Positions 1 to 24,522 of a stretch of DNA of 32,000 bases are shown piece by piece (positions within the stretch are counted from its first letter, which is position 1; each line of letters opens with the position of its first letter). The notes below the pieces were generated by a model that saw nothing but the letters and a program-made list of their open reading frames with translations, was not told where the DNA came from and did not search any database. Location of the stretch: positions 2,550,001 through 2,582,000 of the forward strand of contig NC_007517.1 in the NCBI RefSeq assembly GCF_000012925.1, in the 5' to 3' direction. A program made the translations under genes and the position numbers. The stretch comes from Geobacter metallireducens GS-15. GTDB taxonomy: Bacteria > Desulfobacterota > Desulfuromonadia > Geobacterales > Geobacteraceae.

Positions 1-398
1 AATCCTGGGCAAACCGTATACAGCAACTCGATAAAGTCGATGCCAACCGCCGTGTCCATTATGAATAGCGCATTAACTTCCCCAGAACTAAGAATCATTT
101 CCAGTTCATGGGTCTTGTAGCGGGTGTTGATAGGCACCAGCCAAGCACCGATCCATGCAACAGCATTTCTGACAACAATCCACTCCGGAATGTTCGTCAT
201 CATAATGCCTACCCGATCACCTTTTTTAATACCCGCCCTCAATAACGCTTTTGCCAACTTGGATGAGAGCTCGCGCAATTCCCCCCATGACAGAATTCGA
301 TCCTTAAAAATGATCGCCGTTTTGTCACGATCAACCTTGCTGACCGTCTCATGTAGAAGTTGTGCTTGGTTCAAATTGCAATAATCCATGATATCCAT
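1..398 (-). CDS. AMP-dependent acyl-CoA synthetase/ligase, N-terminal part (gene runs off left edge)
   Basis: Absent from the ORF track (no stop in window). Hand translation of the minus strand from ATG at 398 stays open to position 1: MDIMDYCNLNQAQLLHETVSKVDRDKTAIIFKDRILSWGELRELSSKLAKALLRAGIKKGDRVGIMMTNIPEWIVVRNAVAWIGAWLVPINTRYKTHELEMILSSGEVNALF... The GIKKGDRV / N.PEW / GA..VPIN pattern is typical of ANL-superfamily N-termini. AGAGGA lies ~8 nt upstream of the ATG. Confidence 0.75.
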   Translation of the reverse strand, partial: MDIMDYCNLNQAQLLHETVSKVDRDKTAIIFKDRILSWGELRELSSKLAKALLRAGIKKGDRVGIMMTNIPEWIVVRNAVAWIGAWLVPINTRYKTHELEMILSSGEVNALFIMDTAVGIDFIELLYTVCPG

Positions 399-453
399 AG
401 GACATATCCTCTGCGATGGGGCTCGTTGTAATTGACCGGAAAAACTGCCATCG

Positions 454-487
454 CCGTGAGATTTGCACCAACGTGCAAATCTCACGG
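454..487. repeat. perfect 15-bp inverted repeat with 4-nt spacer, function unknown
   Basis: CCGTGAGATTTGCAC-caac-GTGCAAATCTCACGG read directly. It lies 56-89 nt upstream of the ligase ATG. Confidence refers to the repeat itself, not to a function. Confidence 0.9.
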
Positions 488-703
488 CTACGTTCGTATT
501 ACTGCTGGGAAACAAGGTACGATACATTATAAAATGTAGTTTTGTATAATTACACTTTCAGTCCATATCTATATTATTCATTCTAATGAACCAGCTAACT
601 TCAAGTCCACAGAAACCTCAGCATGTCATCAATTACCGCTATTAGGCGCTCTCGCTCCACCATGCAACCATGCTCAGTTACTGGCAAAACAGACCAACCC
701 CAC

Positions 704-759
704 GCAACCGAACGTTCGGTTGCATACATATATTAGTTTTTTTCAGCTCGACATGTCAA
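704..759 (-). promoter_or_regulatory. candidate sigma70 promoter plus 20-bp palindromic operator upstream of the acyl-CoA ligase
   Basis: Minus strand reads TTGACA (759-754), 18 nt, TAATAT (735-730), then the perfect palindrome GCAACCGAACGTTCGGTTGC (723-704). It shares the CCGAACG core with the sites at 2100 and 24478. Confidence 0.5.
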
Positions 760-1002: not shown

Positions 1003-1446
1003 TCAATCCACGCGGGGCAGACATGAAAAACTAGAAAGCGACTGGATCATGAAAGTCCCCGTCGCCACGGCCGCCAATGCACCATCGGGGGCGAAAAGCT
1101 CTGCGCGACTGACCCCGATATTCTTCCCGCGCCTGATAACACTGGCATCGGCACGCAGAATATTTCCTCGCACAGGAAGCAGATAATTTACCTTGATTTC
1201 AATACTTGAGCAGGTTATGCCAGGGGGAAGCTCACTGAGAATAGCGGAACAGAGAGCGGAATCGGCAAGGTTTGCCAGAAAACCACCATGCACCGTTCCC
1301 AAGGTGTTCAGAAACTCCGGCCGTACCGGAAGCTCCAGATGCACAAATCCAGGCTTGTGTCTGACAAGGCGTACCCCTAACCACGTTTGATAATTCTTCT
1401 CGGTAAAGGAACGCTCAAGCTCTGTTAAAAGCGCACTGTTTTCCAA
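1003..1446 (-). CDS. PaaI/4HBT-family hotdog-fold acyl-CoA thioesterase
   Basis: 147-aa ORF. The motif LNTLGTVHGGFLANLADSA is characteristic of PaaI-type thioesterases. TTG start with GGGAG 9 nt upstream. Confidence 0.85.
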   Translation of the reverse strand: MENSALLTELERSFTEKNYQTWLGVRLVRHKPGFVHLELPVRPEFLNTLGTVHGGFLANLADSALCSAILSELPPGITCSSIEIKVNYLLPVRGNILRADASVIRRGKNIGVSRAELFAPDGALAAVATGTFMIQSLSSFSCLPRVD

Positions 1447-1513
1447 GCAAGGTTACTCCCAAATCTTAAGATACTGTCATTGCAATATAATAGATTTAAA
1501 TATGATCAGAAAA

Positions 1514-1984
1514 TCAATTCTCGGGTAAAAAGTATTCTTCGTAGAGATCTTCCAGTATTTGAAGATGGAGTGATTCCTCTGCCAATAGCTGTCCGAACAG
1601 GACATCGTTCTGCGCCCCGCCACTCTCATTGGCCATATGATTGTAAAAATCAATAGCCCCCTTTTCCACATGGATGGCATAGGCTAACGCCTCACGTGCG
1701 TCCGAATCAGAATGAAGCATTTTTTTGGGCAAGACATAATGGAGGTTCATAGTCGGAACCGGCCGGGTTAAGGCAGAACTCTCCAATCTTCCCTTTATCA
1801 AGGCCTTTTCCAGACGGTTTTTATGAACCAGTTTCGCAAGGGCGACCCGCCTGAGCGTTTTCTTAGCCCATTCATTCCGCACTATGTTCATAGCGTCCAG
1901 ATAGTTGTGGATGTTGTCAGTCTCAAATTTGACCGCCTTTTTCAACACAGTCTCAAATACGCCTTCATCCTTGTTCTCATACAT
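1514..1984 (-). CDS. ferritin-like / rubrerythrin-family domain protein (156 aa)
   Basis: Track ORF 1514..2194 trimmed to ATG at 1984, which has GGAGGTG 5 nt upstream (MYENKDEGVF...). C-terminal half has helical E-rich motifs (AIHVEKGAIDFY, LLAEESLHLQ with ExxH). The family call is pattern-based only. Confidence 0.6.
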   Translation of the reverse strand: MYENKDEGVFETVLKKAVKFETDNIHNYLDAMNIVRNEWAKKTLRRVALAKLVHKNRLEKALIKGRLESSALTRPVPTMNLHYVLPKKMLHSDSDAREALAYAIHVEKGAIDFYNHMANESGGAQNDVLFGQLLAEESLHLQILEDLYEEYFLPEN

Positions 1985-2099
1985 TGTTTCACCTCCGTTC
2001 TCAGCCTTCCCTCTCAGCCTAGTTATCGGTAACCGAGCACTAACCAACCCATGCCCCATATATTTGTAACAATATCTTCTCCCGCGCAAACCATCTATA

Positions 2100-2143
2100 T
2101 CGACCGTTCGGTATATTATTAACATACAACCGCACGCTGTCAA
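2100..2143 (-). promoter_or_regulatory. candidate sigma70 promoter plus operator for the ferritin-like/thioesterase unit
   Basis: Minus strand: TTGACA (2143-2138), 17 nt, AATAAT (2120-2115), ATA, CCGAACGGTCGA (2111-2100). Architecture is nearly identical to the 24478-24522 site. Confidence 0.55.
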
Positions 2144-4680: not shown

Positions 4681-4751
4681 GCAAACCTCGTGTAGTTAGT
4701 AACCGGGGATTAGGGACTGGGGACCGGTAAAAGCCTTTGCTAGTCCCTAGC

Positions 4752-6104: not shown

Positions 6105-6129
6105 CCTAGCCCCTAGTCCCTGTTCTTTG

Positions 6130-10314: not shown

Positions 10315-11190
10315 TCAATTCCTCGGCTTGTAGATCTTGAGGAGCGCTTTGGCCATGTCGGCGGGGCTCTGGGCTACACTGATGCCGCACTCTTCCAGAA
10401 TGGCCACCTTTTCCGTCGCCGTCCCCTTGCCGCCAGAGATGATGGCACCCGCATGACCCATCCGCTTACCCGGAGGAGCGGTGACCCCGGCAATGTACGC
10501 CGCCACCGGCTTGGTCATGTGCTCCTTGACGAACCGCGCCCCTTCTTCCTCGGAGTTACCCCCGATCTCGCCGATCATGATCACTGCCTCGGTGTCCGGG
10601 TCTTCCTCGAACATCCGGAGTACGTCCACGTGGTTGGTGCCGTTGACCGGGTCACCCCCGATGCCGACGCAGGTGGACTGCCCCAGCCCCACGTTGGTCA
10701 GCTGCCATACCGCTTCGTAGGTGAGGGTGCCACTGCGGGAGACAACCCCTACTTTCCCCGGCTTGTGGATGTACCCCGGCATGATCCCGATCTTGCACTG
10801 GCCGGGGGTGATGACCCCGGGGCAGTTGGGGCCAACGAGGCGGGTCTTCTTCCCCTGCATGTACTGCTTTACTTTCACCATGTCCAGGACCGGTATCCCT
10901 TCGGTGATGCAGATGACGAGGTCGAGTCCCGCGTCTACCGCCTCCATGATGGAGTCGGCAGCAAAAGGGGGTGGAACGTAGATGACGGAGGCGGTGGCCC
11001 CGGTCTTGGCTACCGCTTCCCGCACGGTGTCATAGACGGGGAAGCCGTCGATGACGGTGCCCCCTTTGCCGGGGGTGACACCCCCGACCATCTGGGTGCC
11101 GTACTCGCGGGCCCCGTTGGCGTGGAAGAGGCCGGTGGCACCGAGCCCCTGGGTGATGACTTTGGTGTCTTTATTGATAAGGATGCTCAT
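10315..11190 (-). CDS. sucD: succinyl-CoA synthetase (ADP-forming) alpha subunit
   Basis: Track ORF 10315..11394 trimmed to ATG 11190 (GGAGGG upstream). [20 protein letters not shown]..., SRSGTLTYE and MGHAGAII (phosphohistidine loop) match the canonical SucD pattern. Confidence 0.93.
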
Positions 11191-11204
11191 CTGTCTATCC
11201 CTCC

Positions 11205-12365
<1,161 letters not shown>

Positions 12366-12439
12366 CGTTAGCTCCAATCAATAAAATAGTAACTGCTCCG
12401 TTTACCAACTATCACACTCAAAAAACTTGTTTTTTAGAA

Positions 12440-13345
12440 TTACAGTTTCGCCGTCAGGGCGGGAACGAACTGGAGGATATCGGCGACCACGAGGACATCG
12501 GCCACCTCGCCGATGGGGGCGTCCTTGTCCTTGTTGATGGCGACGATGAAGTCGGATTTCTTCATCCCTGCCAGGTGCTGGATGGCACCGGAGACCCCGC
12601 AGGCGATGTACAGTTTCGGGCTTACCGTCTGTCCCGTGGTACCCACCTGGTGGCTGTGCTCTACCCACCCCGCGTCGACCACCGGCCGGCTCGCTCCCAG
12701 CTCCCCTCCCAGCGCCTTGGCCAGGGCGGCGATGACCTCGACGTTTTCTTTCTTGCCGATCCCCCGTCCCGCGGTGACGATGACTTCCGCCCGGGTGAGA
12801 TCCACGTCTTTGGCCTCCGCCGGCTCGTAACCGGCAAAGCTGACGTTGCTCGTTACGCTTGCGGTTATCTTCTGCACGCTGGGGGTCCCACCCGGCTGGA
12901 TGGCGGCAAAGGCACCAGCCTGGATGGTGATGACCGCTTTGCCAGTGGCAGGCTTGACGGTCCGCCGCATCTTGGCGTTGCAACACCCCACTTCGAAGCC
13001 GCCGTCGGTAAGGCCGATGACTTCCGATACCTGGGCGACTTTCAGTCGGGCCGCCACACGCGGCGCCAGGTCCCAGCCGTAGGAGGAGTGGATGAAGACG
13101 ACGTAGTCGGGGTTTTCTTTTTCTATGGCGTCGAGGATCAGCTGTTTGTGCAGGTCGGGGTTGTATTCCCCGCAGCTTGCCGCGTCGGCCAGGTAGAGGG
13201 TGCCACCATAGGCGGGAAGCTGGCTCTCGCTCCCCACCACCAGCATGGCGCTCTGGGCTTCCAGTTGCTGCGCAAAGCCGAGGAGTTCATAGGTACTATC
13301 GAGGAGTTTTCCCTCCCGGTATTCGCCAATCAGTAATGTTTTCAT
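12440..13345 (-). CDS. etfA: electron transfer flavoprotein alpha subunit (no ferredoxin domain)
   Basis: 301 aa. PKLYIACGVSGAIQHLAGM FAD motif. Confidence 0.9.
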   Translation of the reverse strand: MKTLLIGEYREGKLLDSTYELLGFAQQLEAQSAMLVVGSESQLPAYGGTLYLADAASCGEYNPDLHKQLILDAIEKENPDYVVFIHSSYGWDLAPRVAARLKVAQVSEVIGLTDGGFEVGCCNAKMRRTVKPATGKAVITIQAGAFAAIQPGGTPSVQKITASVTSNVSFAGYEPAEAKDVDLTRAEVIVTAGRGIGKKENVEVIAALAKALGGELGASRPVVDAGWVEHSHQVGTTGQTVSPKLYIACGVSGAIQHLAGMKKSDFIVAINKDKDAPIGEVADVLVVADILQFVPALTAKL

Positions 13346-13374
13346 ATGACCTCCAAAAATCTTTTAAAAGCATT

Positions 13375-13528
13375 ACCACAGAGGACACAGAGGGTTTTCA
13401 CGGAGGTACACGGAGAAAAGCACGAGCCTTACGTTTTGTGTTTTTCCTCGGTGTTCCTCCGTGTCCTTTAGGCCCTGTGGGTCTCTGTGGTTAAAGCTTT
13501 TCGCTGTTCCGTGGTTAAAGCTTTTCGC
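13375..13528. repeat. REP-like long imperfect palindrome plus 24-nt tandem duplication in the etfB-etfA spacer
   Basis: Left arm: ACCACAGAGGACACAGAGGG..CACGGAGGTACACGGAG. It pairs with the right arm CTCCGTGTCC..CCCTGTGGGTCTCTGTGGT (13375-13491). GTGGTTAAAGCTTTTCGC occurs twice (13487-13504, 13511-13528). Confidence 0.75.
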
Positions 13529-13530
13529 CG

Positions 13531-14307
13531 TTAACGTAAGACCGCGGTCTTTTCCTTGAGTATCCCCATGAGCTGGTCCACCAGGGCACCCACTTCCCCT
13601 TCCAGGACGATACCCCCTCCCTTTTTGGCGGGGGGGTGGAAGCTTACGGTGGCGGCCAGGGGTTCTTCCTTGAGGAGTTCCGCCACGGGGATGGCCTGGA
13701 TATCTTTCTTCTTCGCCTTCATGATGTTGGGGAGCGTCGGATACCGGGGAACGTTGAGCCCCAGCTGGCAGGTGACCAGGGCCGGGGTGGCAAGCTTGAC
13801 CACTCCCTTGATCCCCCCTTCCAGTTCCCGCTTGCCGGTGACAGAACCGTCGGCGTAGGCGAAGCCGACCAGGGTGGTGGCGCAGGCGTACCCCAGTTCT
13901 TCGGCGACGGTAACCCCCACCAGGGCGGAACCACGGTCCTGGGACTGCATCCCGGTGAAGATGAGGTCGTACCCTTTATCCTTGGCGTAGGCGGCGATGA
14001 TGGCGGCGATCTGCCACGGGTCTTTCATGGCGGCGGCGTTGTCCTGGATGTGGACACCCCGGTCGCACCCCATGGCCAGGGCCTTCTTGATCGCCTCCCC
14101 TACCCGGTCGGGACCGATGGAGAGGACGGTCAACTCACTCCCTTCGCCAAGTTGTTCCCGCAGCTGCACCGCCTGCTCCACGGCAAATTCGTCGTATTCG
14201 TTCATCCGCCAGGCAAGGTCGCTCTCGTCGTACCAGGTACCACCGGCCCCCGGCTTGAACCGTGACTCCATGTCCGGTACCTGTTTGATGCAGACCAGTA
14301 TCTTCAT
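13531..14307 (-). CDS. etfB: electron transfer flavoprotein beta subunit
   Basis: 258 aa, MKILVCIKQVPDMES N-terminus. Lacks the DGDTAQVGP-type segment (has GMQSQDRGSALVG). Confidence 0.9.
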   Translation of the reverse strand: MKILVCIKQVPDMESRFKPGAGGTWYDESDLAWRMNEYDEFAVEQAVQLREQLGEGSELTVLSIGPDRVGEAIKKALAMGCDRGVHIQDNAAAMKDPWQIAAIIAAYAKDKGYDLIFTGMQSQDRGSALVGVTVAEELGYACATTLVGFAYADGSVTGKRELEGGIKGVVKLATPALVTCQLGLNVPRYPTLPNIMKAKKKDIQAIPVAELLKEEPLAATVSFHPPAKKGGGIVLEGEVGALVDQLMGILKEKTAVLR

Positions 14308-14360
14308 ATATACCTCCAGTATTAACCTTTAATAGGACTTATGGGACTTATGGAACGAAC

Positions 14361-16346
14361 CTAGGCGCCCAGGCGCTCTACCACGATCTCCGCCAAGTCC
14401 TTCGCCACAAGACTTCCCTCGGCACCACCGGTCTTGATCCCATCCTCGAACATGGTGAGGCAGAAGGGGCAGTTGGAGACCAGCAGCGGTGCCTCGGTCT
14501 CCTGGGCCATGGCCACCCGCTTCTCGCTGATCTTGGTGCCGAGCTTTTCTTCGGCCAGGATACGTCCCCCACCCGCACCGCAGCAGAAGCTGTCGCCGCC
14601 GCTCTTCTCCATTTCCCGAAGCTGGCCTCCCGCTTGTTTGAGGATGCTCCGCGGCTCTTCGATGATGTCCATGTACCGCCCCACGTAGCAGGAGTCGTGG
14701 TAGGTAGCGACAAACGGTGCCGGCGTCAGGTTGAGCCGGTTGCTCTTGAGCAGACCGTGCAGATAGGTGCTGTAGTGTTCCACCGGAATATCGAGGCCGA
14801 GATCCTTGTAGTCCCTTCCCAGGGTGTTGAAGCAGTGGGGACAGGTGGTGACGATCTTTTTGACCCCGTACCCCTTGATGAGTTCGATGTTTTCCTGGGC
14901 CGTCATCTGGTAGAGGTATTCGTTCCCCAGTTTTCTCGCCGGCTCACCGCAGCACTTCTCTTCCTTGCCAAGTATCCCGACTTTTATCCCGGCGGCCTGG
15001 CAGATGGTGATGAAGCTTTTGGCGATCTCCCGGTTCCGTTTGTCGAAGGAGGCGTAGCAGCCGACGAAGTAGAGGATATCCACTTCCTCGCCACTCTCCA
15101 TGAGGGTAACCGGCAGATTGTCACTCCACTCCCCCCGGGCGGCGAAGGCAAGGCCGAAGGGGTTGCCGTTGACTTCGATGTTGCCGATGGCGGTCCGTAC
15201 TTCATCGCCGGGAAAGGCACCTTCCATGAGGGTGAGGTTTCTTCTCATCTCCAGGATCTTGTTGACGTGTTCGTTGTTGGCCGGGCAGATGTCCTGGCAG
15301 GCACGGCAGGTGGTGCAGGACCAGAGAACATCCTGGCCGACGGTGTCGCACAGGCTGGCTGCGGCATCGTTCTCGGCCACTTCCCCCACTTGCTGGATCA
15401 CTTTCATGGGGGAGAGGGGCTTGCCGGTGGCATAGGCCGGGCAGCGCTCCTGGCACCGCTTGCAGCTGGTGCAGGCATCGGCATCGAAGATGTCTTTCCA
15501 GGTGAGGTCGGTGACTTTGGCCGCCCCGAACTGTTCGATACTCTCGTCTTCCAGGTTGATGGTGCCGATCGTCCCCATGGGTTCCAGGGGGGCAAAGAAG
15601 GCGTTGAGGCTGGTGGTGAGGATATGGCGCAGTTTGCTGTAAGGAATGGCACAGAAGAAGCCGAGCACCAGGGCAAAGTGGAGCCACCAGAGGACCTTGT
15701 GGGTGGTCTTTATGGAGGCTTCGTCGAAGCTTACGAAGAGCTGGGCAACGACGTATCCCACGGGGGAGAATCGGGCCAGTCCCGGATTCTGGGTAAGCTC
15801 AGTGGCCGCCATCCGCGCCCCCTCGATGATGAAGCCGGTGATGAGGATGGCGAAGAGAAGCTGGTGGATGATGTAGTCGTCCTTAACAATCTCCAGTCCC
15901 TCGGGTTTTGTTATGAAGCGGCGGACAAAAAGACCGGCCAGCATGAGGATGGCAACCAGCCCCGCCAGGTCAAGCACCAGGGAAAACGCCTTGTAGAATT
16001 CCCCGGAGAGGAGGTTGACGTGCATGAGGGGGGTGAAAAAGTCTGCCTGGACCATCACCAGCAGGGTGCCGACGAACAGGGTGAGAAAGCCCCAGAAGAA
16101 GAGGGAATGGAACAGCCCCCCCTCCGTGACCCGGGAGACCTTCACCTGCCCCAGCACCTCACCCACCATCCGCTTCACCCGCTCGTCGTACCGGTCACAC
16201 CGGTCCAGGGGCCGACCGACCCTGTAGAGGGGCACCTGTTTCCAGAAGCCCCACACCAGCATTGCCACCGCCGCCAGGCTCAGGACATACATCGGTAATA
16301 CTACCCCGTGCCCGATGTTCCAGTATATTTCGCGCGTCGCTTCCAT
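14361..16346 (-). CDS. membrane-bound Fe-S oxidoreductase (multi-TM + 2x[4Fe-4S] + two CCG domains)
   Basis: Track ORF 14361..16364 (TTG). I prefer ATG 16346 (MEATREIYWN), but the start is uncertain. CTSCKRCQERCP, CTTCRACQDICP, KCCGEP, FCCGAGGG, CPHC, CPFC. Confidence 0.9.
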   Translation of the reverse strand: MEATREIYWNIGHGVVLPMYVLSLAAVAMLVWGFWKQVPLYRVGRPLDRCDRYDERVKRMVGEVLGQVKVSRVTEGGLFHSLFFWGFLTLFVGTLLVMVQADFFTPLMHVNLLSGEFYKAFSLVLDLAGLVAILMLAGLFVRRFITKPEGLEIVKDDYIIHQLLFAILITGFIIEGARMAATELTQNPGLARFSPVGYVVAQLFVSFDEASIKTTHKVLWWLHFALVLGFFCAIPYSKLRHILTTSLNAFFAPLEPMGTIGTINLEDESIEQFGAAKVTDLTWKDIFDADACTSCKRCQERCPAYATGKPLSPMKVIQQVGEVAENDAAASLCDTVGQDVLWSCTTCRACQDICPANNEHVNKILEMRRNLTLMEGAFPGDEVRTAIGNIEVNGNPFGLAFAARGEWSDNLPVTLMESGEEVDILYFVGCYASFDKRNREIAKSFITICQAAGIKVGILGKEEKCCGEPARKLGNEYLYQMTAQENIELIKGYGVKKIVTTCPHCFNTLGRDYKDLGLDIPVEHYSTYLHGLLKSNRLNLTPAPFVATYHDSCYVGRYMDIIEEPRSILKQAGGQLREMEKSGGDSFCCGAGGGRILAEEKLGTKISEKRVAMAQETEAPLLVSNCPFCLTMFEDGIKTGGAEGSLVAKDLAEIVVERLGA

Positions 16347-16360
16347 GGAGCAGTTCCCGA

Positions 16361-17329
16361 TCAACCCTCGTTTATCCGTTCGGTCAATTCGGGCAGGAAC
16401 TCCTGCAGGTCGGCAACAATCCCCACATCGGCAACCTGAAAAATCGGCGCCTTGGGATTTTTATTGATTGCCACGACAAAGGGGTTTCCCTTGATGCCGC
16501 CCAGATGCTGAAACGATCCACTGATCCCACAGGCAAGGTAGACCTTCGGTTTGACCGTCTGCCCGGAAGTACCGACCTGCCGCGATTTATCCATCCATTT
16601 TGCATCGACGATGGGGCGGCTGCAGCTGACAACTCCTCCCATTGCCTCAGCCAGTTCTTCGGCAATCTGAATACCCTCTTCATCACCTATACCGCGTCCT
16701 ATGGAGACAAGGATGTCTTCCTTGGTGATGTCGACATCACCCGCCACAGCTTCGATCAGTTCAACAAACTCCCTGCCGGTCGAGACTTCGGCGACATAAC
16801 TCGATTTATCGACAACTTCACCTATACTTGCCAAGGCCTCAACCGGAGCGAACGCCCCCGGCCGTATATTGATCACCGCGCCTTTATCCATCCTGCACAG
16901 AGAATGGGAGCTTACTTGGCCGCCATATTCCTGGCGAACAACTCTAAGATCGTTTCCGGATACTTCCAGCGCAAGCACATCCGCCACAAAAGTGGCATCG
17001 AGTTTTATGGAGAGACCGGGTGAAAGGTCCATGCCAAATGCATCATGGGGTACAAGCACGATTGCATCAGTGGGGAGAACGGCAAGAAGCGCCTTTCTGA
17101 GAACCTCTGCGTTGGGATAGGCAAAAGCAGAGTTGCCAAGCTTCCATACCTGCTTGTATGTTGATGCCGTCTGGCTGCAGGCCTGGTCCAGATCAGCACC
17201 GGAACCTGCCACCAGAGCTATCGGTTCGGCGGACGCATCAATATTCCTGGCCGCGGAGATCAATTCCAAAGCGGTATCATCTACCGCACCACCCTTATGC
17301 TTGATATAGGCAAAGATCTGAGCCGCCAT
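16361..17329 (-). CDS. etfA: electron transfer flavoprotein alpha subunit
   Basis: 322 aa. PKVYLACGISGSFQHLGGI FAD motif. Start overlaps the etfB stop (TAATG). Confidence 0.9.
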   Translation of the reverse strand: MAAQIFAYIKHKGGAVDDTALELISAARNIDASAEPIALVAGSGADLDQACSQTASTYKQVWKLGNSAFAYPNAEVLRKALLAVLPTDAIVLVPHDAFGMDLSPGLSIKLDATFVADVLALEVSGNDLRVVRQEYGGQVSSHSLCRMDKGAVINIRPGAFAPVEALASIGEVVDKSSYVAEVSTGREFVELIEAVAGDVDITKEDILVSIGRGIGDEEGIQIAEELAEAMGGVVSCSRPIVDAKWMDKSRQVGTSGQTVKPKVYLACGISGSFQHLGGIKGNPFVVAINKNPKAPIFQVADVGIVADLQEFLPELTERINEG

Positions 17330-18111
17330 TATTTGAGCCCTCCTTTGGCTTTGAGCATTTCGACCAGTTTATCGATTATTTCTTCGTTGCTCCCATCAAG
17401 CATCTCGGCACCGGCACCCAATTCGGGGACAAAATAGTCCTCCCTGCGTACACGAGGTTCAACTGCTGCCGTTGACAGCCCCAGCTCACCGGCCCCATGC
17501 ACCGGAATCTGCACCGATGCCACCTGGCGGATGCCGCGGATGCCTACATAGCGCGGCTCGTTTATGCCTGTCTGAATCGACAGCACGCACGGCAGCGATA
17601 TCCGGTTCATTTCGATATTTCCCCCATCAACTTCCCGTCCGACTTTCAGGGTCTTGTCATCGACGATCTCGATGCTGTTTACCAGTGAGGCGTAGGGGAA
17701 ATCAAGGAGGGCTGCCAGCATACCCCCGACTTCTCCTGCCCCGGCGTCGGCCTGAGCACCAGCGAGGATCAGGTCGTATTTCCCTTTTTCGATCTCGGCC
17801 TTCAGAATTGTGGCGAGCCCTCTTCCATCCGTTCCCGCGAATGATTCGTCTTGCAGGAGAATGCCTCGATCAGCGCCCATAGCCATCTCGCGACGCAACA
17901 CTTCCTCTGATTCCCCGTCACCGACAGTCACAACGGTCACGGAACCGCCCGAGCTTTCCTTTATCCTGATTGCCTCCTCGACCGCGTAGTTGTCCCATTC
18001 GTTGACCGAATAGACCAACGAATCCCTTTCGATGTCACTGCCGTCGGCATTGACTTCGATTTCGTTTTCAGCGGTATCAGGTACCCTCGTGACACAAACC
18101 AGAATTTCCAT
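17329..18111 (-). CDS. etfB: electron transfer flavoprotein beta subunit
   Basis: 260 aa, MEILVCVTRVPDTAEN N-terminus. Divergent from the other two EtfB copies. Confidence 0.9.
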   Translation of the reverse strand: MEILVCVTRVPDTAENEIEVNADGSDIERDSLVYSVNEWDNYAVEEAIRIKESSGGSVTVVTVGDGESEEVLRREMAMGADRGILLQDESFAGTDGRGLATILKAEIEKGKYDLILAGAQADAGAGEVGGMLAALLDFPYASLVNSIEIVDDKTLKVGREVDGGNIEMNRISLPCVLSIQTGINEPRYVGIRGIRQVASVQIPVHGAGELGLSTAAVEPRVRREDYFVPELGAGAEMLDGSNEEIIDKLVEMLKAKGGLK

Positions 18112-18176
18112 AGAGGCCTCCGTTAAAGATTATTTCCACGTCGTTGACGAGAGAACTCGTTCATTCTCTGTACGCT

Positions 18177-20255
18177 TTACGTTACTGAAAGATGCCTATC
18201 GGCCAGTTCCACTAGGTCAATGACCTCCATCGTTCCTTCCAGTCCGCTGACCTTGATGGCATCCTCGATATTGACCATACAGAACGGGCATGCCGTGACG
18301 ATCACATTGGCCCCCGCCTCCTGTGCCATCTTGACCCGCAGCACACCCATGCGCTGCTCTTCCTCCGGCTCGAAAAACAGCATCAGCCCACCGCCACCAC
18401 AGCAGAATGAACGGTCGCGGCACCTGTCCATTTCAACCTTCCGCAAGCCGGGAATAGCGTCAAGCACCCCACGGGGATCGTCATAGAGCTCATTGTGCCT
18501 GCCAAGGTAACACGGGTCATGGAAGGTGTAGACCTTCGCGGGATCTTCGACCGCACTGAACCTGATCCTCCCCGAGCTGAGGCTCTTCATGATAGTCTGG
18601 CTAATGTGCTCCACAGGTGGGAGTCCCTGGTAGTCGTTTTTGAGCGCATTGAAAGCATGGGGGTCGGCAGTAACAATCTGGCGGACACCGGTCTCCTTTA
18701 TGACTTCCATGTTGTGGGCCTTGAGCGTCTGATAAAGGGTTTCCTCGCCAAAACGGAGCACTTCGTTACCGCTGTCGCGCTCATCCGCACCGAGAATACC
18801 GAAATCGATCCCTGCCGCGGTGAGCACTCTGGCCGTAGCTCGCCCGATCTCCTGCATCCGGTCGTCATAGGAGGTAATACTGTCTACAAAGTAGAGCGTA
18901 TCGGCCTGCTGTTGACCATCAAACACCTTCACCGGATAGTTGGCGGCAAACTCGGCCTCCTTGGTCCAGTCCGCACGTTTTTTCTCCAGCTTGCCCCACG
19001 GGTTGCCGCGTTTCTCCAATGCACCCAACGGTTTCTGGAGTGACTGCGGCACCATCCCCTCGTCGACCATGCCTCTACGGAGATCAACGATCTTATCGAT
19101 GTATTCGATCAGAACGGGGCACTCCTCCTCGCAGGCCCCACAAGTAGTACAGGACCAAATTTCATCCTCGTGGAGCACCGTTCCGATCAGACGTTCGTCC
19201 TGGTTCCCCCCATCTCCGAACAAGGGATACCGATTAAAGGCGTAATCCCGGCATTTGATCGAGATGAACCGAGGCGACAGCGGCCGGCCGACCGCATTGG
19301 CAGGGCAGTTGTCCGAACAGCGGCCGCAGTCGACGCAGGAGTAAAAGTCCAGCATATGCTTCCAGCTGAAATCCTCTAACTTCTTTACTCCCAACGATTC
19401 CAGGCCGTCGAGCTCGTCGTCAGTCACCCCCCAGCGTACCGGCTTGATCCTTCCCTTGCTGAGCTTGGTGAGAAATACATTGGGGAGTGAGGTGATAACA
19501 TGGAAATGCTTGCCGAAAGGGAGCAGACAGAGGAAGGAGAAGAACACCACTTCATGCAGGAAGTAACTCCCCAGATGGATTTTCTGAAGCAGCGTCGGAG
19601 AAAGGGAACTGAACAACTGCGCCGCGACCCACGAACCGGTCACCGGAACCAGCAGATGGTGGAGAGCTCCGGCTTGGGACTGGGCAGCAGCGCGGCTCCC
19701 TTCAAAGAGCATGTCGCAGGTCACAAGAGCAGCGATAAGAAGCAACACCAGTACCGCTTCGCCCGTATGATCCTTGTCTCCATAGCGGCTCGGGACGTCA
19801 TAGCGCTTGGGCTTGAATACTCCCCTGCGGATAGCTGCTGTGATGGCGACTATCAGCACGATGGTTGCGGCAAAGTCCTTGAAAACCGAATAGACGACAC
19901 CGGCTCTCCCCCCGAGACCCGGCAGGACAAAACCGTCCCTGATGCCAATGATCACCAGCGATATGGATCCCAGTGACAGGACAAGGAACCCCGCAAACAG
20001 CAGGATATGCAGGACACCGGCAAACAGGTACCTCGGCTGGCGCCACTGCAGCATACCGAACTTGAGAAATTTGACGATACGTTCCGGCACCTCGTTGATT
20101 CGTGGGTCAGGCTCCCCTTTCAAAAGGGGGGACAATCGTTTACCTATGATGTAGGCAAATGCTCCGATTCCGACAAGGGGGATCAGCGAAAAGAGCAGAT
20201 ACCCGGGGATGCCGAAAAATGCCGCAGCAGCTGGTGAAACAAGTGTCTGTTCCAT
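18177..20255 (-). CDS. membrane-bound Fe-S oxidoreductase paralog with a cysteine-less first CCG domain
   Basis: Track ORF 18177..20297 trimmed to ATG 20255 (MEQTLVSP). CVDCGRCSDNCP and CTTCGACEEECP are present. The second CCG domain is intact (FCCGGGG, CPFC). The first is degenerate (VDS, RDSG, ADPHAF). Confidence 0.9.
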   Translation of the reverse strand: MEQTLVSPAAAAFFGIPGYLLFSLIPLVGIGAFAYIIGKRLSPLLKGEPDPRINEVPERIVKFLKFGMLQWRQPRYLFAGVLHILLFAGFLVLSLGSISLVIIGIRDGFVLPGLGGRAGVVYSVFKDFAATIVLIVAITAAIRRGVFKPKRYDVPSRYGDKDHTGEAVLVLLLIAALVTCDMLFEGSRAAAQSQAGALHHLLVPVTGSWVAAQLFSSLSPTLLQKIHLGSYFLHEVVFFSFLCLLPFGKHFHVITSLPNVFLTKLSKGRIKPVRWGVTDDELDGLESLGVKKLEDFSWKHMLDFYSCVDCGRCSDNCPANAVGRPLSPRFISIKCRDYAFNRYPLFGDGGNQDERLIGTVLHEDEIWSCTTCGACEEECPVLIEYIDKIVDLRRGMVDEGMVPQSLQKPLGALEKRGNPWGKLEKKRADWTKEAEFAANYPVKVFDGQQQADTLYFVDSITSYDDRMQEIGRATARVLTAAGIDFGILGADERDSGNEVLRFGEETLYQTLKAHNMEVIKETGVRQIVTADPHAFNALKNDYQGLPPVEHISQTIMKSLSSGRIRFSAVEDPAKVYTFHDPCYLGRHNELYDDPRGVLDAIPGLRKVEMDRCRDRSFCCGGGGLMLFFEPEEEQRMGVLRVKMAQEAGANVIVTACPFCMVNIEDAIKVSGLEGTMEVIDLVELADRHLSVT

Positions 20256-20328
20256 GGTTCTCTCACTCTCGGCGACACTAAGAATGAACCGTCGCACATC
20301 TGTCTCTGATCAAAAAGCTTCTTTCCTT

Positions 20329-21567
20329 CTACAGACAACTCTCATCAACGCTGATAACGGCTGCGTCCCCTTGGGCCAGACCGCCGCAGATACCGACCAC
20401 ACCAACCCCGCCACCTCTCCTGCGCAGTTCGTACATGGCGGTCATCAAAATCCTGGCCCCACTTGCACCGACAGGATGGCCGATGGCTATGGCTCCGCCG
20501 TTCGGGTTGGTTTTGGCCAGCAACTCTTCCCATTTTGTCTGATCGCCATCAGCAAGGATCTTGGTTGACACCAGCGGCATGGCTGCGAACGCCTCGTTGA
20601 TCTCGATCAGATCAACGTTCTCGAGTTGCACGGACGCCCGGTCGAGCGCCTTCTGAATCGCAAATGCCGGAACCTCGGCTATCCCGCGCGGCGCACTGGC
20701 CACGCTGGCAACCGAAAGAATGACGCCCAGCGGCTTGACACCCAACGCGTCCGCAGTTGCACGTTTGGTGATGATCAAGGCCGACGCACCGGCGTCAAGC
20801 CCCGGGGCATTGCCGGCAGTCACCGTAGCACTGCCGTAGACTGGTGGGAGTTTTGCCAACCCTTCCGGGGTGGTGTTAGGTTTGGGGAATTCGTCTTCAG
20901 CAAAAATGACTGGATCGCCCTTTTTCTGGGAGAGTTCGATGGCAGCCACCTCTTCACCCGGCCTGAACTTGCCGGCGGCCTTGGCTGCCTGATATTTCAT
21001 CTGGGAGGCATAGGCCCAGGCATCCTGCATCTCCCTCGACACATCATATTCCAGCGCGACCGCCCCCGCATCACCGGCAAGAGAATTGAACCCCACGTAC
21101 ATGATCGGATTGAGGTGGTCCACCATCTCGGGTTTTCCCAGCCCCGTCCCCCAGCGATGGCCATTGAGCACCACGGGAGTGTTGCTCATGTTCTCAGCTC
21201 CGACAGCCATACAGACCTTTGCCTCATCCAGCAGCAAAGACTTTCTCCCGAGCTGGACCGCGGCGAGCGACGAACAGCAAGCCCGGTCAACCGTCAGAGA
21301 AAGGGTTTCGGGTGGCAGCCCCGCATGCAGCATGGCCTGCCGCGCCACAACGTTATACTTGAGCGCAGCTTCCGACTGGATGCACATCCCGTAATACACC
21401 TCGTCGATGTCGCTCCCCTTCAAGCCGGACCGCTGCAGAACTTCCCTGATGATCATCGCACCGAGCTCAATGCTATGAATCTGCTTCAATAACCCGCCGA
21501 ACTTGCTGAACGGCGTCCGCGCCGCGCTTATAATGACGATATCGTTCTGATTGCCCATTTGCACCAT
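20329..21567 (-). CDS. acetyl-CoA C-acyltransferase / thiolase
   Basis: 412 aa. VDRACCSSL (active-site Cys), NEAFA, IGHPVGASGARIL and CGGLAQG are thiolase signatures. ATG 21558 (AAGGA 8 nt upstream) is an equally plausible start. Confidence 0.92.
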   Translation of the reverse strand: MVQMGNQNDIVIISAARTPFSKFGGLLKQIHSIELGAMIIREVLQRSGLKGSDIDEVYYGMCIQSEAALKYNVVARQAMLHAGLPPETLSLTVDRACCSSLAAVQLGRKSLLLDEAKVCMAVGAENMSNTPVVLNGHRWGTGLGKPEMVDHLNPIMYVGFNSLAGDAGAVALEYDVSREMQDAWAYASQMKYQAAKAAGKFRPGEEVAAIELSQKKGDPVIFAEDEFPKPNTTPEGLAKLPPVYGSATVTAGNAPGLDAGASALIITKRATADALGVKPLGVILSVASVASAPRGIAEVPAFAIQKALDRASVQLENVDLIEINEAFAAMPLVSTKILADGDQTKWEELLAKTNPNGGAIAIGHPVGASGARILMTAMYELRRRGGGVGVVGICGGLAQGDAAVISVDESCL

Positions 21568-21612
21568 CCTTACATGGCTTTCGCCAGCGATATTTTCCAG
21601 CTGCGGAGTAAG

Positions 21613-22467
21613 CTATTTATCGTACTTGTACCACCCCTCTCCCGACTTCCTTCCCAGCTTTCCGGCTTTGACGCGGTGCAGCAGGATCTGTGGGGCACGG
21701 AAACGGTCACCAAAGGTCTTTGTCAGGGCCTCGCAGGCGGCAGGCTCGATATCCAGTCCTGAAAAATCGGCAAGCTCGAACTGTCCCATCGGATGGCCAA
21801 AGGCAAGTCGCAGTGTCTTGTCGATATCTTCGGGGGTTGCGATCCCCTCCTCCACCAGGCGATAACACTCAAGGCGCATCGCTACGAGAACCCGCGTGCT
21901 GATGAACCCCTGCGAATCCTTGCAGACGACCGTCTCCTTCCCCACCGCGGCGGAAAACGTCTCAATTTCGTTCAGCACCGCGTCGGATGTCTCCAGCCCC
22001 CTGATGATCTCGATCAATTTCATGGCCACTGGCGGGTTGAACCAGTGCATCCCGATCACTCTGCTCGGATTTGCCACAACCGATGCCAACTCGGTAATAC
22101 TGTACTGGGAGGTATTGGATGCCAGTATAGCCTCCGGTTTGCAGTACTGGTCGAGCTTCCTGAAGATCGAATGTTTCAGCTCCAGGTTTTCCGGGGCAGC
22201 CTCGACGACAAGATCGGCATCTTTCACTGCCTGGGCGATGTCAGTCGTGTATGAGATCCGTCCAAGAATGGACTTTTTGTCCTCTTCGGTCAGTTTCCCC
22301 CGCTGGATGCCGCGGTCAAGTGATGCCGCAATGTGTGATTTCGCTTTCTCAAGAACCTGATCAGATATATCGTTCAGCGCTACGTTGATGCCGGCCGTCG
22401 CAACCACCTGCGATATGCCATGCCCCATGATTCCCGATCCGATAACCGCCACTTTCCCAATACCCAT
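21613..22467 (-). CDS. hbd: 3-hydroxyacyl/3-hydroxybutyryl-CoA dehydrogenase (NAD-binding)
   Basis: Track ORF trimmed to ATG 22467 (GGAGG 5 nt upstream). KVAVIGSGIMGHGI Rossmann motif. ASNTSQYSITELA and MHWFNPP segments are typical of the family. Confidence 0.92.
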   Translation of the reverse strand: MGIGKVAVIGSGIMGHGISQVVATAGINVALNDISDQVLEKAKSHIAASLDRGIQRGKLTEEDKKSILGRISYTTDIAQAVKDADLVVEAAPENLELKHSIFRKLDQYCKPEAILASNTSQYSITELASVVANPSRVIGMHWFNPPVAMKLIEIIRGLETSDAVLNEIETFSAAVGKETVVCKDSQGFISTRVLVAMRLECYRLVEEGIATPEDIDKTLRLAFGHPMGQFELADFSGLDIEPAACEALTKTFGDRFRAPQILLHRVKAGKLGRKSGEGWYKYDK

Positions 22468-22521
22468 GGATTCCTCCCCGCGCAGTTTGTTGTCGCTGTT
22501 CAAAACCGCTCCTGCATTCCC

Positions 22522-24369
22522 TTAACCCGTAAATGACTTTTCGCCGATGCTGATGACCGGAGCCGCACCCGATCTGATCTGCTCGAATTTTCCAAAAGTA
22601 TTCATGAGCAGCGTTCCGATGAAAAACCGGGCTCCCAGCACCTTGCCGTCGTAAAATGCCGCATTCTTGTTCTTGTTCAGGATCTTGGCAATTTCGTCTT
22701 CGCTCTTGTTTTCAATGAAACCCTGCAATTTCGGATTCGCGACCGTCAGCTGCCACAGATGCAGCCAACCGAGGAGGACATCCCCCATCGCCTCAAGGAA
22801 CGGGCTGGTCTTTGCGTATAGATCAAGGGAATTGCCGGCAGCTGAAGATGCAGCCATTTCTTCGACTATCCGTGCAAGACCCTCCCTGGCACGCTTTACA
22901 ATTGCCGCATACACGCTGATCTCAGCGTCTGCAGCCCCCTTTTCTATGGTCTGGTCGATCATCTCCAGCAGGTTGTTAAAATTAACCCTGTTGTTGCCAA
23001 GGATTTTCCTGAACATCAGATCCATGGCCTGAATGCCGTTGGTCCCCTCGAAAATGGTGGTTACCTTACAGTCACGCGCCAACCGTTCAAAGGGATAATC
23101 GGAACAATACCCATACCCCCCGGCGCACTGCATGGCCAGAGCGGTCACGGTCCAGGCATTGTCGGTGATATAGGCCTTGACAATCGGGGTCAGCAGTTCG
23201 ACCAACCCCTGCCACCTGGCACGATCCGCACCATCTGCGACCCCCGCGTTATCCATGCAGCTGCTGGTGAAATAGGCGAGACTGCGGCACCCTTCCACAT
23301 AGGCCTTCATGGTCAGGAGCATCCGCTTCACATCGGGGTGATTGATGATCGCCACCGATTTCTGCTTATCTGCACCTGGATATACCGATAGGCCCTGCAC
23401 CCGGCTTTTCGTGTAATCCACGGCATTCATGAATGCGCTCGTGGAAAATGAGAGCCCCTCAACACCGACCAGAAGGCGCTGCTCATTCATCATGTGGAAC
23501 ATCTCCGCCATCCCCTTGCCCTGCTCCCCCAGCAAGTATCCGGTACATTTTCCGCTGTCGCCAAATGCCATGGTACAGGTAACAAGTCCGTGCAGCCCCA
23601 TTTTGTGCTCAATGCCGGTACAATAAACATCGTTGCGCTCGCCGGCGTTCCCCACCCCGTCGGGGAGGAACTTGGGAACGATGAACAGGGACAACCCCTT
23701 GGTACCGGGGGGATCGCCTGCCACCCGGGCAAGCACCATGTGGATGATGTTACCGGCCAGGTCATGCTCGCCGGCAGTGATGAATATCTTGGTACCGGTA
23801 ATCGCGTAACTGCCGTCCCCGTTGCGGGTCGCAACGGTCTGCACCGCACCGACCTCACTCCCCGCATCAGGTTCCGTGAGACACATGGTCCCCATCCACT
23901 CCCCGGCAAAGAGCTTGGTCATGTAGCTCTTTTTCTGCTCTTCGCTCCCATAGGCCTCGATCACCTTGGCAGCCGCATGCGTCAGCTCGGCTGCCCCGTA
24001 AATATAAAAACCGCAGGCGTAGAAAACTTCGGACACGGCTGTTCCCACGGCCGAAGGGAAACCATCCCCCCCCACGTCGGGGCTGTCGCACATCGTCAGC
24101 CAGCCACCTTCACAAAATTTCTGATATGGCTTGTGAAACGATTGAGGGAACGTAACAGCCTTGGTCTTCGGGTCATAGAGGCATCCCTGCTGGTCACCGT
24201 CAACGGCGGTAGGGGATAACTCGGTGTTGGCGAAGGTATGTGCCTCGTTCAGGACCATCTCGTATCCCGCATGACTGGCATATCTCGGAAAACTACATAG
24301 ACGGTCAATCTCCAGCATTTCTTTCAGCACAAATATCTGATCACGCTTATCAACCAGTAAGTTCGCCAC
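22522..24369 (-). CDS. long (about 615 aa) acyl-CoA dehydrogenase with extended C-terminal domain
   Basis: Track ORF 22522..24426 trimmed to GTG 24369 (AGGAGA 7 nt upstream). TMCLTEPDAGSEVG, GTKIFITAGEHD and YTKSRVQG..., then FEGTNGIQAMDL, match the ACAD pattern. About 150 extra C-terminal residues. Confidence 0.9.
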   Translation of the reverse strand: MANLLVDKRDQIFVLKEMLEIDRLCSFPRYASHAGYEMVLNEAHTFANTELSPTAVDGDQQGCLYDPKTKAVTFPQSFHKPYQKFCEGGWLTMCDSPDVGGDGFPSAVGTAVSEVFYACGFYIYGAAELTHAAAKVIEAYGSEEQKKSYMTKLFAGEWMGTMCLTEPDAGSEVGAVQTVATRNGDGSYAITGTKIFITAGEHDLAGNIIHMVLARVAGDPPGTKGLSLFIVPKFLPDGVGNAGERNDVYCTGIEHKMGLHGLVTCTMAFGDSGKCTGYLLGEQGKGMAEMFHMMNEQRLLVGVEGLSFSTSAFMNAVDYTKSRVQGLSVYPGADKQKSVAIINHPDVKRMLLTMKAYVEGCRSLAYFTSSCMDNAGVADGADRARWQGLVELLTPIVKAYITDNAWTVTALAMQCAGGYGYCSDYPFERLARDCKVTTIFEGTNGIQAMDLMFRKILGNNRVNFNNLLEMIDQTIEKGAADAEISVYAAIVKRAREGLARIVEEMAASSAAGNSLDLYAKTSPFLEAMGDVLLGWLHLWQLTVANPKLQGFIENKSEDEIAKILNKNKNAAFYDGKVLGARFFIGTLLMNTFGKFEQIRSGAAPVISIGEKSFTG

Positions 24370-24477: not shown

Positions 24478-24522
24478 TTCGACCGTTCGGTTAATTATTA
24501 AACAAATAAAACGTGGTGTCAA
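24478..24522 (-). promoter_or_regulatory. candidate sigma70 promoter plus operator of the 12-gene beta-oxidation/Etf/sucCD operon
   Basis: Minus strand: TTGACA (24522-24517), 17 nt, AATAAT (24499-24494), then AACCGAACGGTCGAA (24492-24478). About 110 nt upstream of the ACAD start. Confidence 0.55.

What the first reader, a model, noticed from the sequence alone, without database searches (positions are those of the whole stretch)
2100..2143. Two distant operons carry a near-identical promoter-operator cassette (second copy at 24478-24522)
On the minus strand both sites read TTGACA, exactly 17 nt, AATAAT, 3 nt, then CCGAACGGTCGA.
- 2143-2100: TTGACAgcgtgcggttgtatgttAATAATataCCGAACGGTCGA
- 24522-24478: TTGACAccacgttttatttgtttAATAATtaaCCGAACGGTCGAA

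The conserved 12-mer sits where transcription should start, which is the classic position for a repressor operator. One cassette precedes the ferritin-like/thioesterase pair. The other precedes the 12-gene beta-oxidation/Etf/sucCD operon. This implies a common regulator and a regulon linking these units. The IclR gene at 9034-9816 is the only candidate regulator in the window, and nothing ties it to the motif.
Basis: seen in the sequence. Interest (0 to 1): 0.62.

Follow-up and report, generated by a model that had tools for sequence, protein, structure and literature searches.

The report
TetR-type operator on three acyl-CoA promoters
Three promoters for fatty-acid/acyl-CoA genes in Geobacter metallireducens carry the same short palindrome at the transcription start; it matches a well-known class of TetR-family repressor binding sites, so this is a real but ordinary regulatory element whose repressor is not yet identified.

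Summary
The window is Geobacter metallireducens GS-15, chromosome 2,550,001-2,582,000.

On the minus strand, three of the six best sigma-70-like promoter matches are followed within 2-9 nt by ACCGAACGKTCG(G/A). They precede:
- Gmet_2252, an acyl-CoA synthetase, where the site is a perfect 20-bp palindrome (704-723)
- Gmet_2254-2253, a ferritin-like protein and a PaaI-like thioesterase
- the 11-gene Gmet_2270-2260 operon (beta-oxidation, Etf, FeS oxidoreductases, sucCD)

The -35 box, -10 box and operator are invariant upstream of three orthologous operons (73-81% ACAD identity), while spacers and flanks diverge.

A metagenome scan for promoter plus operator gave 53 unique cassettes. In 39 the next gene is a TetR-family regulator, and none has an IclR gene. 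In 38 the palindrome is completed by bases the pattern did not require.

The ACCGA-N4-TCGGT layout and its position over the start site match the published operators of QacR, CgmR and Thermus PfmR. A validated PfmR site shares a 13-mer with the 2100 site.

The best reading is a TetR-family repressor, probably acyl-CoA responsive, encoded outside the window. The neighbouring IclR gene is not supported as the regulator. This is a new member of a known kind, of low to moderate interest.

The parts
704..723 (-). Operator S0: perfect 20-bp palindrome GCAACCGAACGTTCGGTTGC (14-mer core at 707-720)
   Evidence: It has zero mismatches to ACCGAACGTTCGGT and begins at about +1 of the promoter listed next.
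730..759 (-). Sigma-70-like promoter of Gmet_2252: TTGACA (759-754), 18-nt spacer, TAATAT (735-730)
   Evidence: 10 of 12 matches. It is one of only six sites in the window scoring at least 10 of 12.
1..398 (-). 5' part of Gmet_2252, an AMP-forming acyl-CoA synthetase. The ORF runs off the left end of the window. It is annotated as frameshifted in the genome paper.
   Evidence: PF00501, E=6.6e-26; supplement of PMC2700814. The predicted leader is about 325 nt (start at 398) or about 195 nt (start at 527).
2099..2112 (-). Operator S1: ACCGAACGGTCGAT, an imperfect palindrome whose right half is TCGA rather than TCGGT
   Evidence: Its plus-strand reading CGACCGTTCGGTA is identical to 13 nt of the validated PfmR site at the T. 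thermophilus TTHA0987 promoter.
2115..2143 (-). Sigma-70-like promoter of Gmet_2254-2253: TTGACA, 17-nt spacer, AATAAT
   Evidence: 11 of 12. A terminator-like hairpin at 2281-2299 lies upstream of it.
1003..1984 (-). Gmet_2254 ferritin/rubrerythrin-like protein (1514-1984, 156 aa) and Gmet_2253 hotdog PaaI-like thioesterase (1003-1446)
   Evidence: supplement of PMC1924859.
24478..24491 (-). Operator S2: ACCGAACGGTCGAA
   Evidence: It is conserved upstream of orthologous operons in L081, L150 and L151.
24494..24522 (-). Sigma-70-like promoter of the Gmet_2270 operon: TTGACA, 17-nt spacer, AATAAT
   Evidence: 11 of 12. The -35 and -10 boxes are invariant in the four-way alignment.
10315..24369 (-). 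Eleven-gene operon Gmet_2270 to Gmet_2260, in order: large acyl-CoA dehydrogenase, 3-hydroxyacyl-CoA dehydrogenase, thiolase, FeS/CCG oxidoreductase, EtfB, EtfA, FeS/CCG oxidoreductase, EtfB, EtfA, SucC, SucD
   Evidence: locus tags and coordinates from the supplement of PMC1924859.

Best explanation
Each cassette is a strong sigma-70 promoter whose start-site region (about -4 to +17) is an operator of the QacR/CgmR/PfmR type, ACCGA-N4-TCGGT. A TetR-family homodimer, possibly a pair of dimers, encoded elsewhere on the chromosome binds there. It blocks open-complex formation or promoter escape at three promoters: Gmet_2252 (acyl-CoA synthetase), Gmet_2254-2253 (ferritin-like protein and thioesterase), and Gmet_2270-2260 (beta-oxidation, two Etf/FeS-oxidoreductase modules, succinyl-CoA synthetase). 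Binding of a pathway thioester, most likely an acyl-CoA, to the repressor's C-terminal domain releases it and switches on the regulon.

Shown here: the sequence anatomy, the conservation, and the association of the motif with TetR genes.

Inferred: binding itself, stoichiometry, the effector, and the regulator's identity. The candidates are Gmet_2216 and Gmet_2241, taken from the published gene list.
For: - There are three sites, all just downstream of the best promoter matches in the window, and all in front of acyl-CoA metabolism genes.
- Footprint: in four orthologous upstream regions (ACAD identity 100, 81, 78 and 73%) the invariant columns cluster in CTTGACA, ATAAT and AACCGA.CGGTCG, while the rest diverges.
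- The metagenome scan for promoter plus the 12-nt left part gave 67 loci and 53 unique cassettes. In 38 of 53 the sequence continues with GT, completing the palindrome, where about 3 would be expected by chance. In 39 of 53 a TetR_N protein starts right after the operator (32 called strictly downstream, plus 7 whose mechanically called ORF start lies just upstream of the operator).
- All 12 such downstream regulators sent to Pfam have PF00440, with at least six different C-terminal families.
- In 22 of 22 beta-proteobacterial loci that carry the core CGAnCGTTCG, a TetR gene lies between the site and the orthologue of this acyl-CoA dehydrogenase.
- The TetRs behind the cassette resemble QacR (E=1e-17) and PfmR, PDB 3vpr (E=4e-30).
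- Published operators match. The PfmR consensus is TACCGACCGNTNGGTN and its validated site is CCGACCGTTCGGTAAG (PMC7022988). QacR IR1 is CTTATAGACCGATCGATCGGTCTATAAG, spans -6 to +21, and is bound by two dimers. The CgmR operator is ...TACCGA-N4-TCGTTA... (PMC9210681).
Against: - No TetR gene lies in the window or next to the orthologous operons, so the regulator is unassigned.
- The right half-site of S1 and S2 is TCGA rather than TCGGT.
- No transcription start, binding or expression data were available. In the published benzoate microarray only Gmet_2260 of this operon is listed, and it has a 92% identical paralogue, so cross-hybridisation is possible.
- Many TetR subfamilies share this operator, so the motif alone does not name the effector.
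- The paper on BgeR, a known Geobacter repressor of benzoate genes, could not be read. An overlap with its operator cannot be excluded.
Confidence: 0.8

Rival explanations
1. The neighbouring IclR-family protein Gmet_2259 (9034-9816) binds the palindrome and controls the three units.
For: It is the only regulator gene in the window. It lies just downstream of the large operon. It resembles the PcaR/PcaU/PobR subfamily, but scores below the curated cut-off.
Against: No site within 3 mismatches lies upstream of its own gene. None of the 67 metagenome loci with the cassette encodes an IclR homologue, whereas 39 of 53 unique cassettes precede a TetR gene. The motif matches known TetR operators.
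Confidence: 0.04
2. The shared sequence acts at the RNA level, as a 5'-terminal hairpin or leader element that affects mRNA stability or translation, rather than as a DNA operator.
For: The element would be transcribed, since it covers about +1 to +17. The S0 RNA folds into a hairpin of -15.7 kcal/mol (z = -3.5).
Against: The S2 RNA does not fold better than shuffled sequence (z = +1.1), and S1 folds differently. Deviations from the palindrome are not compensatory. There is no Rfam match. The association with TetR genes and with a fixed promoter position fits a DNA site.
Confidence: 0.03
3. The two cassettes are copies of one promoter fragment spread by recombination or mobile DNA in this IS-rich island, with no shared regulator.
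For: The region is full of mobile elements: an IS at 4740-6116, an integrase, and an IS21 directly upstream of S2. The promoter regions are low in GC.
Against: The spacers between the boxes differ. The cassette is kept upstream of orthologues in three other organisms that lack the flanking IS or integrase. A third, differently spaced copy exists. The palindrome is a widespread TetR operator.
Confidence: 0.03
4. A palindrome-binding regulator of another family (for example MarR, GntR or LacI), encoded elsewhere, recognises the site.
For: The regulator gene is not identified, and a short palindrome alone is not diagnostic of a family.
Against: The strong and specific linkage of this exact palindrome to TetR genes, and its identity with experimentally defined TetR operators.
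Confidence: 0.08

Closest known systems
Thermus thermophilus PfmR (TTHB023), a TetR-family repressor of phenylacetate and fatty-acid genes, and its operator
   Same: A pseudopalindrome ACCG-N6-CGGT overlapping promoters of acyl-CoA-related genes. The published consensus is TACCGACCGNTNGGTN. The validated site CCGACCGTTCGGTAAG shares the 13-mer CGACCGTTCGGTA with S1. A TetR placed behind the same cassette in a metagenome is most similar to the PfmR structure 3vpr. A PaaI-like thioesterase is among the targets here too.
   Different: The phylum differs. PfmR is autoregulated from its own promoter, whereas no regulator gene is linked here. The in-vitro (REPSA) optimum, CTGACCGATCGGTCAG, has its half-sites 4 bp closer together. 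The effector of PfmR is unknown.
Staphylococcus aureus QacR and its IR1 operator (also C. glutamicum CgmR)
   Same: The same core layout, ACCGA-N4-TCGGT (IR1 contains ...GACCGATCGATCGGTC...). The same position just downstream of the -10 box and over the start site (-6 to +21). Repression occurs after RNA polymerase binding. One cassette-linked TetR has a QacR-like C-terminal domain and hits QacR at E=1e-17.
   Different: IR1 is a 28-bp palindrome bound by two dimers. It controls a drug efflux pump and responds to cationic drugs. Here the conserved block is 14-20 bp and the targets are catabolic. Stoichiometry was not tested.
FadP, the predicted TetR-family fatty-acid degradation regulator of Burkholderia, Ralstonia and Comamonadaceae
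   Same: A TetR regulator coupled to the same large acyl-CoA dehydrogenase family (PF12806 C-terminus). The 10-bp core CGA(C/T)CGTTCG upstream of the tetR-ACAD pair is identical to the plus-strand core of S1 and S2. FadP is described in PMC5343134.
   Different: The outer bases differ (A-CGA...TCG-T versus C-CGA...TCG-G). The regulator gene is adjacent and autoregulated there but absent here. That the TetRs in these loci are FadP is my inference. The original FadP motif paper could not be read.
Acyl-CoA-responsive TetR repressors FadR (Bacillus YsiA, T. thermophilus FadR) and PaaR
   Same: The same logic: a TetR repressor over a sigma-70 promoter of beta-oxidation or thioester genes, released by an acyl-CoA. 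This rests on established knowledge and on PMC5397183 and PMC4424350, which were seen.
   Different: Their operator sequences differ from this one, as far as I recall; this was not tested here.

Membership tests
QacR/CgmR/PfmR-type TetR operator | Inverted repeat with ACCGA and TCGGT half-sites separated by 4 bp (ACCG-N6-CGGT) | tested here: met
   S0 is perfect (704-723). S1 and S2 have a perfect left half and TCGA on the right. Compared with the published IR1, CgmR and PfmR sequences.
QacR/CgmR/PfmR-type TetR operator | Site overlaps the -10 box or transcription start of a sigma-70 promoter | tested here: met
   The operators begin 2 nt (S1, S2) or 9 nt (S0) after the -10 hexamer of the best promoter matches. 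The start sites are predicted, not mapped.
QacR/CgmR/PfmR-type TetR operator | A cognate TetR-family gene is linked to the site, typically adjacent and autoregulated | tested here: not met
   There is no TetR gene in the window or beside the orthologous operons. The feature is met for the motif class elsewhere: 39 of 53 metagenome cassettes and 22 of 22 beta-proteobacterial loci.
QacR/CgmR/PfmR-type TetR operator | Specific binding by a TetR protein, as a dimer or pair of dimers, relieved by a ligand | not testable with these tools
   This needs EMSA, footprinting or DAP-seq with G. metallireducens TetR proteins.
FadP regulon (beta-proteobacteria) | A TetR gene immediately upstream of the large acyl-CoA dehydrogenase gene, with the palindrome in front of the pair | tested here: not met
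   An integrase and an IS21, not a TetR gene, lie upstream of Gmet_2270. The core motif is shared.
IclR-family operator | The motif co-occurs with IclR genes, or lies in the regulator's own promoter | tested here: not met
   No site upstream of Gmet_2259. There are zero IclR homologues in the 67 cassette-bearing loci.
Sigma-70 promoter | -35 TTGACA and -10 TATAAT-like hexamers 16-18 bp apart, conserved in orthologues | tested here: met
   Scores of 11/12, 11/12 and 10/12. Both hexamers are invariant in the four-way alignment. Start-site mapping is not possible with these tools.
LexA (Cheo box, CGAAC-N4-GTTCG) | Four-base spacer between the GAAC and GTTC half-sites | tested here: not met
   S0 reads CGAACGTTCG with no spacer. 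This was considered only because of the shared CGAAC/GTTCG words.

The most novel reading that the evidence does not exclude
One unlinked TetR repressor, such as Gmet_2216 or Gmet_2241, coordinates a laterally acquired three-promoter regulon in the aromatics island. The regulon joins acid activation, thioester hydrolysis, beta-oxidation, two Etf/FeS-oxidoreductase electron-exit modules and substrate-level ATP synthesis. Separately, the same 14-bp operator is reused by TetR regulators with at least six unrelated ligand domains, so paralogous TetRs in one cell could cross-talk on shared operators.
Probability: 0.3. Interest if true: 0.4.

Novelty: new member of a known kind. Interest (0 to 1): 0.25.

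Why it matters
The finding gives a concrete, testable regulatory link between three acyl-CoA units in the aromatics and fatty-acid island of G. metallireducens. These units include the Etf/FeS-oxidoreductase modules thought to pass beta-oxidation electrons to the membrane. The finding also narrows the search for the regulator from "unknown" to a handful of TetR genes.

It adds a compact, strong and probably acyl-CoA-inducible promoter-operator module that could be used for Geobacter genetics.

It does not reveal a new mechanism. The operator type, its promoter position and the repressor family are all well established.

Tried and rejected
- **Reading the genome outside the window.** Exact-protein look-ups for the window thioesterase, the thiolase and P0001 found no record. 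The only G. metallireducens-like contig found is 2.8 kb and lies inside the window.
- **Fishing for the G. metallireducens TetR.** A search with a cassette-linked TetR from L096 returned only Desulfobacterota and metagenome relatives.
- **Conservation of S1.** The nearest homologues of the ferritin-like protein (56-60% identity) sit in an unrelated housekeeping context without the motif. S1 conservation is therefore untestable.
- **Closest genome relatives.** Desulfosarcina and other Desulfobacterales loci (58-65% ACAD identity) lack the motif. In L082 the ACAD gene is internal to a longer operon.
- **RNA reading.** There are no Rfam matches or tRNA genes and no shared fold.
- **LexA box and Thermus PaaR consensus.** Rejected on spacing and on the position of the symmetry axis.
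- **Control scans.** The real and a reversed operator pattern both gave zero hits in viral contigs, which is uninformative.
- **Literature.** The FadP motif paper, the PfmR paper and the BgeR paper are not held. The family and operator of BgeR therefore stay unchecked. The G. metallireducens genome paper and its supplements do not contain this motif. No paper mentions Gmet_2216, Gmet_2241, Gmet_2253 or Gmet_2254.

Full report
**Observation.** On the minus strand the window reads TTGACA-17 nt-AATAAT-ATACCGAACGGTCGAT at 2143-2099 and TTGACA-17 nt-AATAAT-TAACCGAACGGTCGAA at 24522-24478, as reported. The repeat finder returns this pair as a 28-nt repeat of 86% identity. It is the only non-coding, non-IS repeat in the window.

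A third copy lies at 704-723. It is GCAACCGAACGTTCGGTTGC, a perfect 20-bp palindrome, 9 nt after TTGACA-18 nt-TAATAT.

Only these three places in the window come within 3 mismatches of ACCGAACGTTCGGT. Only six sigma-70-like matches in the whole window, on both strands, reach 10 of 12. Three of them, including the only two at 11 of 12, are the ones followed by the palindrome. Between copies the hexamers and the palindrome agree, while the spacers do not.

**Where this is.** The acyl-CoA dehydrogenase at 22522-24369 is 100% identical to ABB32496 of Geobacter metallireducens GS-15. Published coordinates place the window at chromosome 2,550,001-2,582,000, inside the "aromatics island" (PMC1924859 supplement).

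Gene content (names from PMC2700814 and PMC1924859 supplements):

| Locus | Product | Window position / note |
|---|---|---|
| Gmet_2252 | AMP-forming acyl-CoA synthetase | Runs off the left end; annotated frameshifted |
| Gmet_2253 | PaaI-like hotdog thioesterase | 1003-1446 |
| Gmet_2254 | Ferritin-like protein | 1514-1984 |
| Gmet_2255, 2257, 2258 | FeS oxidoreductase, Fd-EtfA, EtfB | Unit split by an IS (Gmet_2256) |
| Gmet_2259 | IclR-family regulator | 9034-9816 |
| Gmet_2260-2270 | SucD, SucC, EtfA, EtfB, FeS/CCG oxidoreductase, EtfA, EtfB, FeS/CCG oxidoreductase, thiolase, 3-hydroxyacyl-CoA dehydrogenase, large ACAD | 10315-24369 |

An integrase, an IS21 and other mobile DNA follow.

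The three cassettes therefore precede an acid-activating enzyme, a thioesterase pair and a beta-oxidation/electron-transfer/ATP operon. All three deal with acyl-CoA chemistry. There is no TetR gene in the window.

**Conservation.** Contigs carrying the closest ACAD relatives keep the same operon.
- L081 (81% identity) has TTGACA-17-AATAAT-AA-ACCGAACGGTCGAT.
- L150 (78%) has GATAAT-AA-ACCGAACGGTCGGA.
- L151 (73%) has GATAAT-GA-ACCGACCGGTCGAA.

In the four-way alignment the invariant columns fall in CTTGACA, ATAAT and AACCGA.CGGTCG, and the surrounding sequence is not alignable.

More distant relatives lack the site, or have the gene inside a longer operon. These are the Desulfosarcina loci at 58-65% identity and L082 at 71%.

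**What binds it.** Two independent comparisons point to the TetR family.

First, 22 beta-proteobacterial loci hold a 37%-identical orthologue of this ACAD and also contain the core CGAnCGTTCG. In every one of them a TetR ORF lies between the site and the ACAD gene. This resembles the predicted FadP system (PMC5343134).

Second, a metagenome scan for TTGACA-N16-18-WAWWAT-N1-10-ACCGAACGKTCG returned 67 loci, which reduce to 53 unique cassettes.
- In 38 of 53 the next two bases are GT. This completes ACCGAACGKTCGGT, often as TGACCGAACGGTCGGTCA, although the pattern did not ask for it.
- In 39 of 53 a 190-230 aa TetR-family ORF begins right after the palindrome. That count is 32 called strictly downstream plus 7 whose mechanical ORF start lies just upstream.
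- Twelve of twelve such downstream regulators sent to Pfam carry PF00440, with at least six different C-terminal families.
- No IclR homologue occurs in any of these loci.
- Other downstream genes include an enoyl-CoA hydratase, a UbiD-family enzyme and an efflux pump. One TetR is followed by an acyl-CoA synthetase.

**Comparison with known operators.** Cassette-linked TetRs are most similar to QacR (E=1e-17), to B. subtilis FadR, and to PDB 3vpr, KstR2 and other acyl-CoA-type TetRs (E down to 4e-30).

PMC7022988 quotes the PfmR (TTHB023) consensus TACCGACCGNTNGGTN. It also lists a biophysically validated site, CCGACCGTTCGGTAAG, at the -10 region of TTHA0987. Thirteen consecutive bases of that site, CGACCGTTCGGTA, are identical to S1 read on the plus strand.

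PMC9210681 gives QacR IR1 as CTTATAGACCGATCGATCGGTCTATAAG. It covers -6 to +21 of the qacA promoter and is bound by a pair of dimers. The same paper gives the CgmR site as ...TACCGA-N4-TCGTTA....

All share the ACCGA-N4-TCGGT layout of the Geobacter sites and their position over the start site.

**Mechanism proposed.** A TetR-family repressor encoded outside the window occupies about -4 to +17 of the three promoters and blocks productive initiation. A pathway thioester releases it.

The regulon content argues for an acyl-CoA effector, but the operator alone cannot name it, because many ligand-domain families use this site.

The published gene lists give four TetR genes without a G. sulfurreducens orthologue. 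Two lie nearby:
- Gmet_2216 is 189 aa and lies 42 kb to the left, between an HpaB-like gene and an SDR gene, next to the Gmet_2194-2213 fatty-acid cluster.
- Gmet_2241 is 198 aa and lies 16 kb to the left, beside an RND exporter.

I could not read these loci, so the assignment is open.

**Rivals.** IclR is disfavoured. An RNA element is disfavoured because only S0 folds well and no Rfam family matches. Spread of a promoter fragment by mobile DNA does not explain the divergent spacers or the conservation in IS-free orthologous contexts.

**Caveats.**
- There are no start-site, binding or clean expression data. In the benzoate microarray only Gmet_2260 of this operon is listed, and it is 92% identical to Gmet_2068.

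**Verdict.** It is a new instance of a well-known operator class whose regulator is still unassigned. It is of modest interest.

Noticed in passing
window 4740-6116: An IS element (rve-type transposase at 4842-6041, 65-nt inverted repeats) is inserted between Fd-EtfA (Gmet_2257) and the FeS/CCG oxidoreductase (Gmet_2255). It splits what looks like an etfB-etfA-oxidoreductase operon.
   Followed up: partly
window 13484-13531: A 24-nt unit, TCYGTGGTTAAAGCTTTTCGCYGT, is duplicated in tandem (92% identity). It lies in the 186-nt gap between EtfB (13531-14307) and EtfA (12440-13345), inside the large operon. Its function is unknown.
   Followed up: no
window 10008-10181 (minus strand): A 57-aa ORF (MGKYSENAKYDVISIRVTEDEKRKIQDLAVLNNINMTNFIRKILF...) lies between sucD and the IclR gene. 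It looks like a ribbon-helix-helix DNA-binding protein. This was not tested against any library.
   Followed up: no
window 24639-27616 and 28048-29127: An integrase gene starts about 115 nt upstream of the S2 -35 box. It is followed by an IS21 (istA/istB, inverted repeats at 25653-25704 and 27558-27616). Next comes a 33% GC ORF of 359 aa with no family match, then a Rep_trans-like gene. Mobile DNA therefore abuts the regulated promoter.
   Followed up: partly
window 398-723 (minus strand): The S0 promoter is separated from the Gmet_2252 start codon by a leader of about 325 nt that contains a very AT-rich stretch (about 500-600). The S0 palindrome would form a 5' RNA hairpin of -15.7 kcal/mol.
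   Followed up: partly
L082 19144-19157: A Desulfuromonadales MAG has ACCGATCGTTCGTT upstream of a gene related to the Fd-EtfA of the window. This hints that Etf modules are under a related operator elsewhere.
   Followed up: no
L130/L135, L140, L117, L134 (metagenome loci): Several cassettes carry a second copy or half-copy of the palindrome inside the -35/-10 spacer, for example tcgaccgaccgttcggt in L140. This suggests two operators per promoter in some systems.
   Followed up: no
window 10315-12377 versus Gmet_2068-2069 (outside the window): The sucCD pair here has a 92% identical paralogue in the benzoate-induced cluster Gmet_2057-2075, according to PMC1924859. The reported 22-fold benzoate induction of Gmet_2260 may therefore be cross-hybridisation.
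   Followed up: partly
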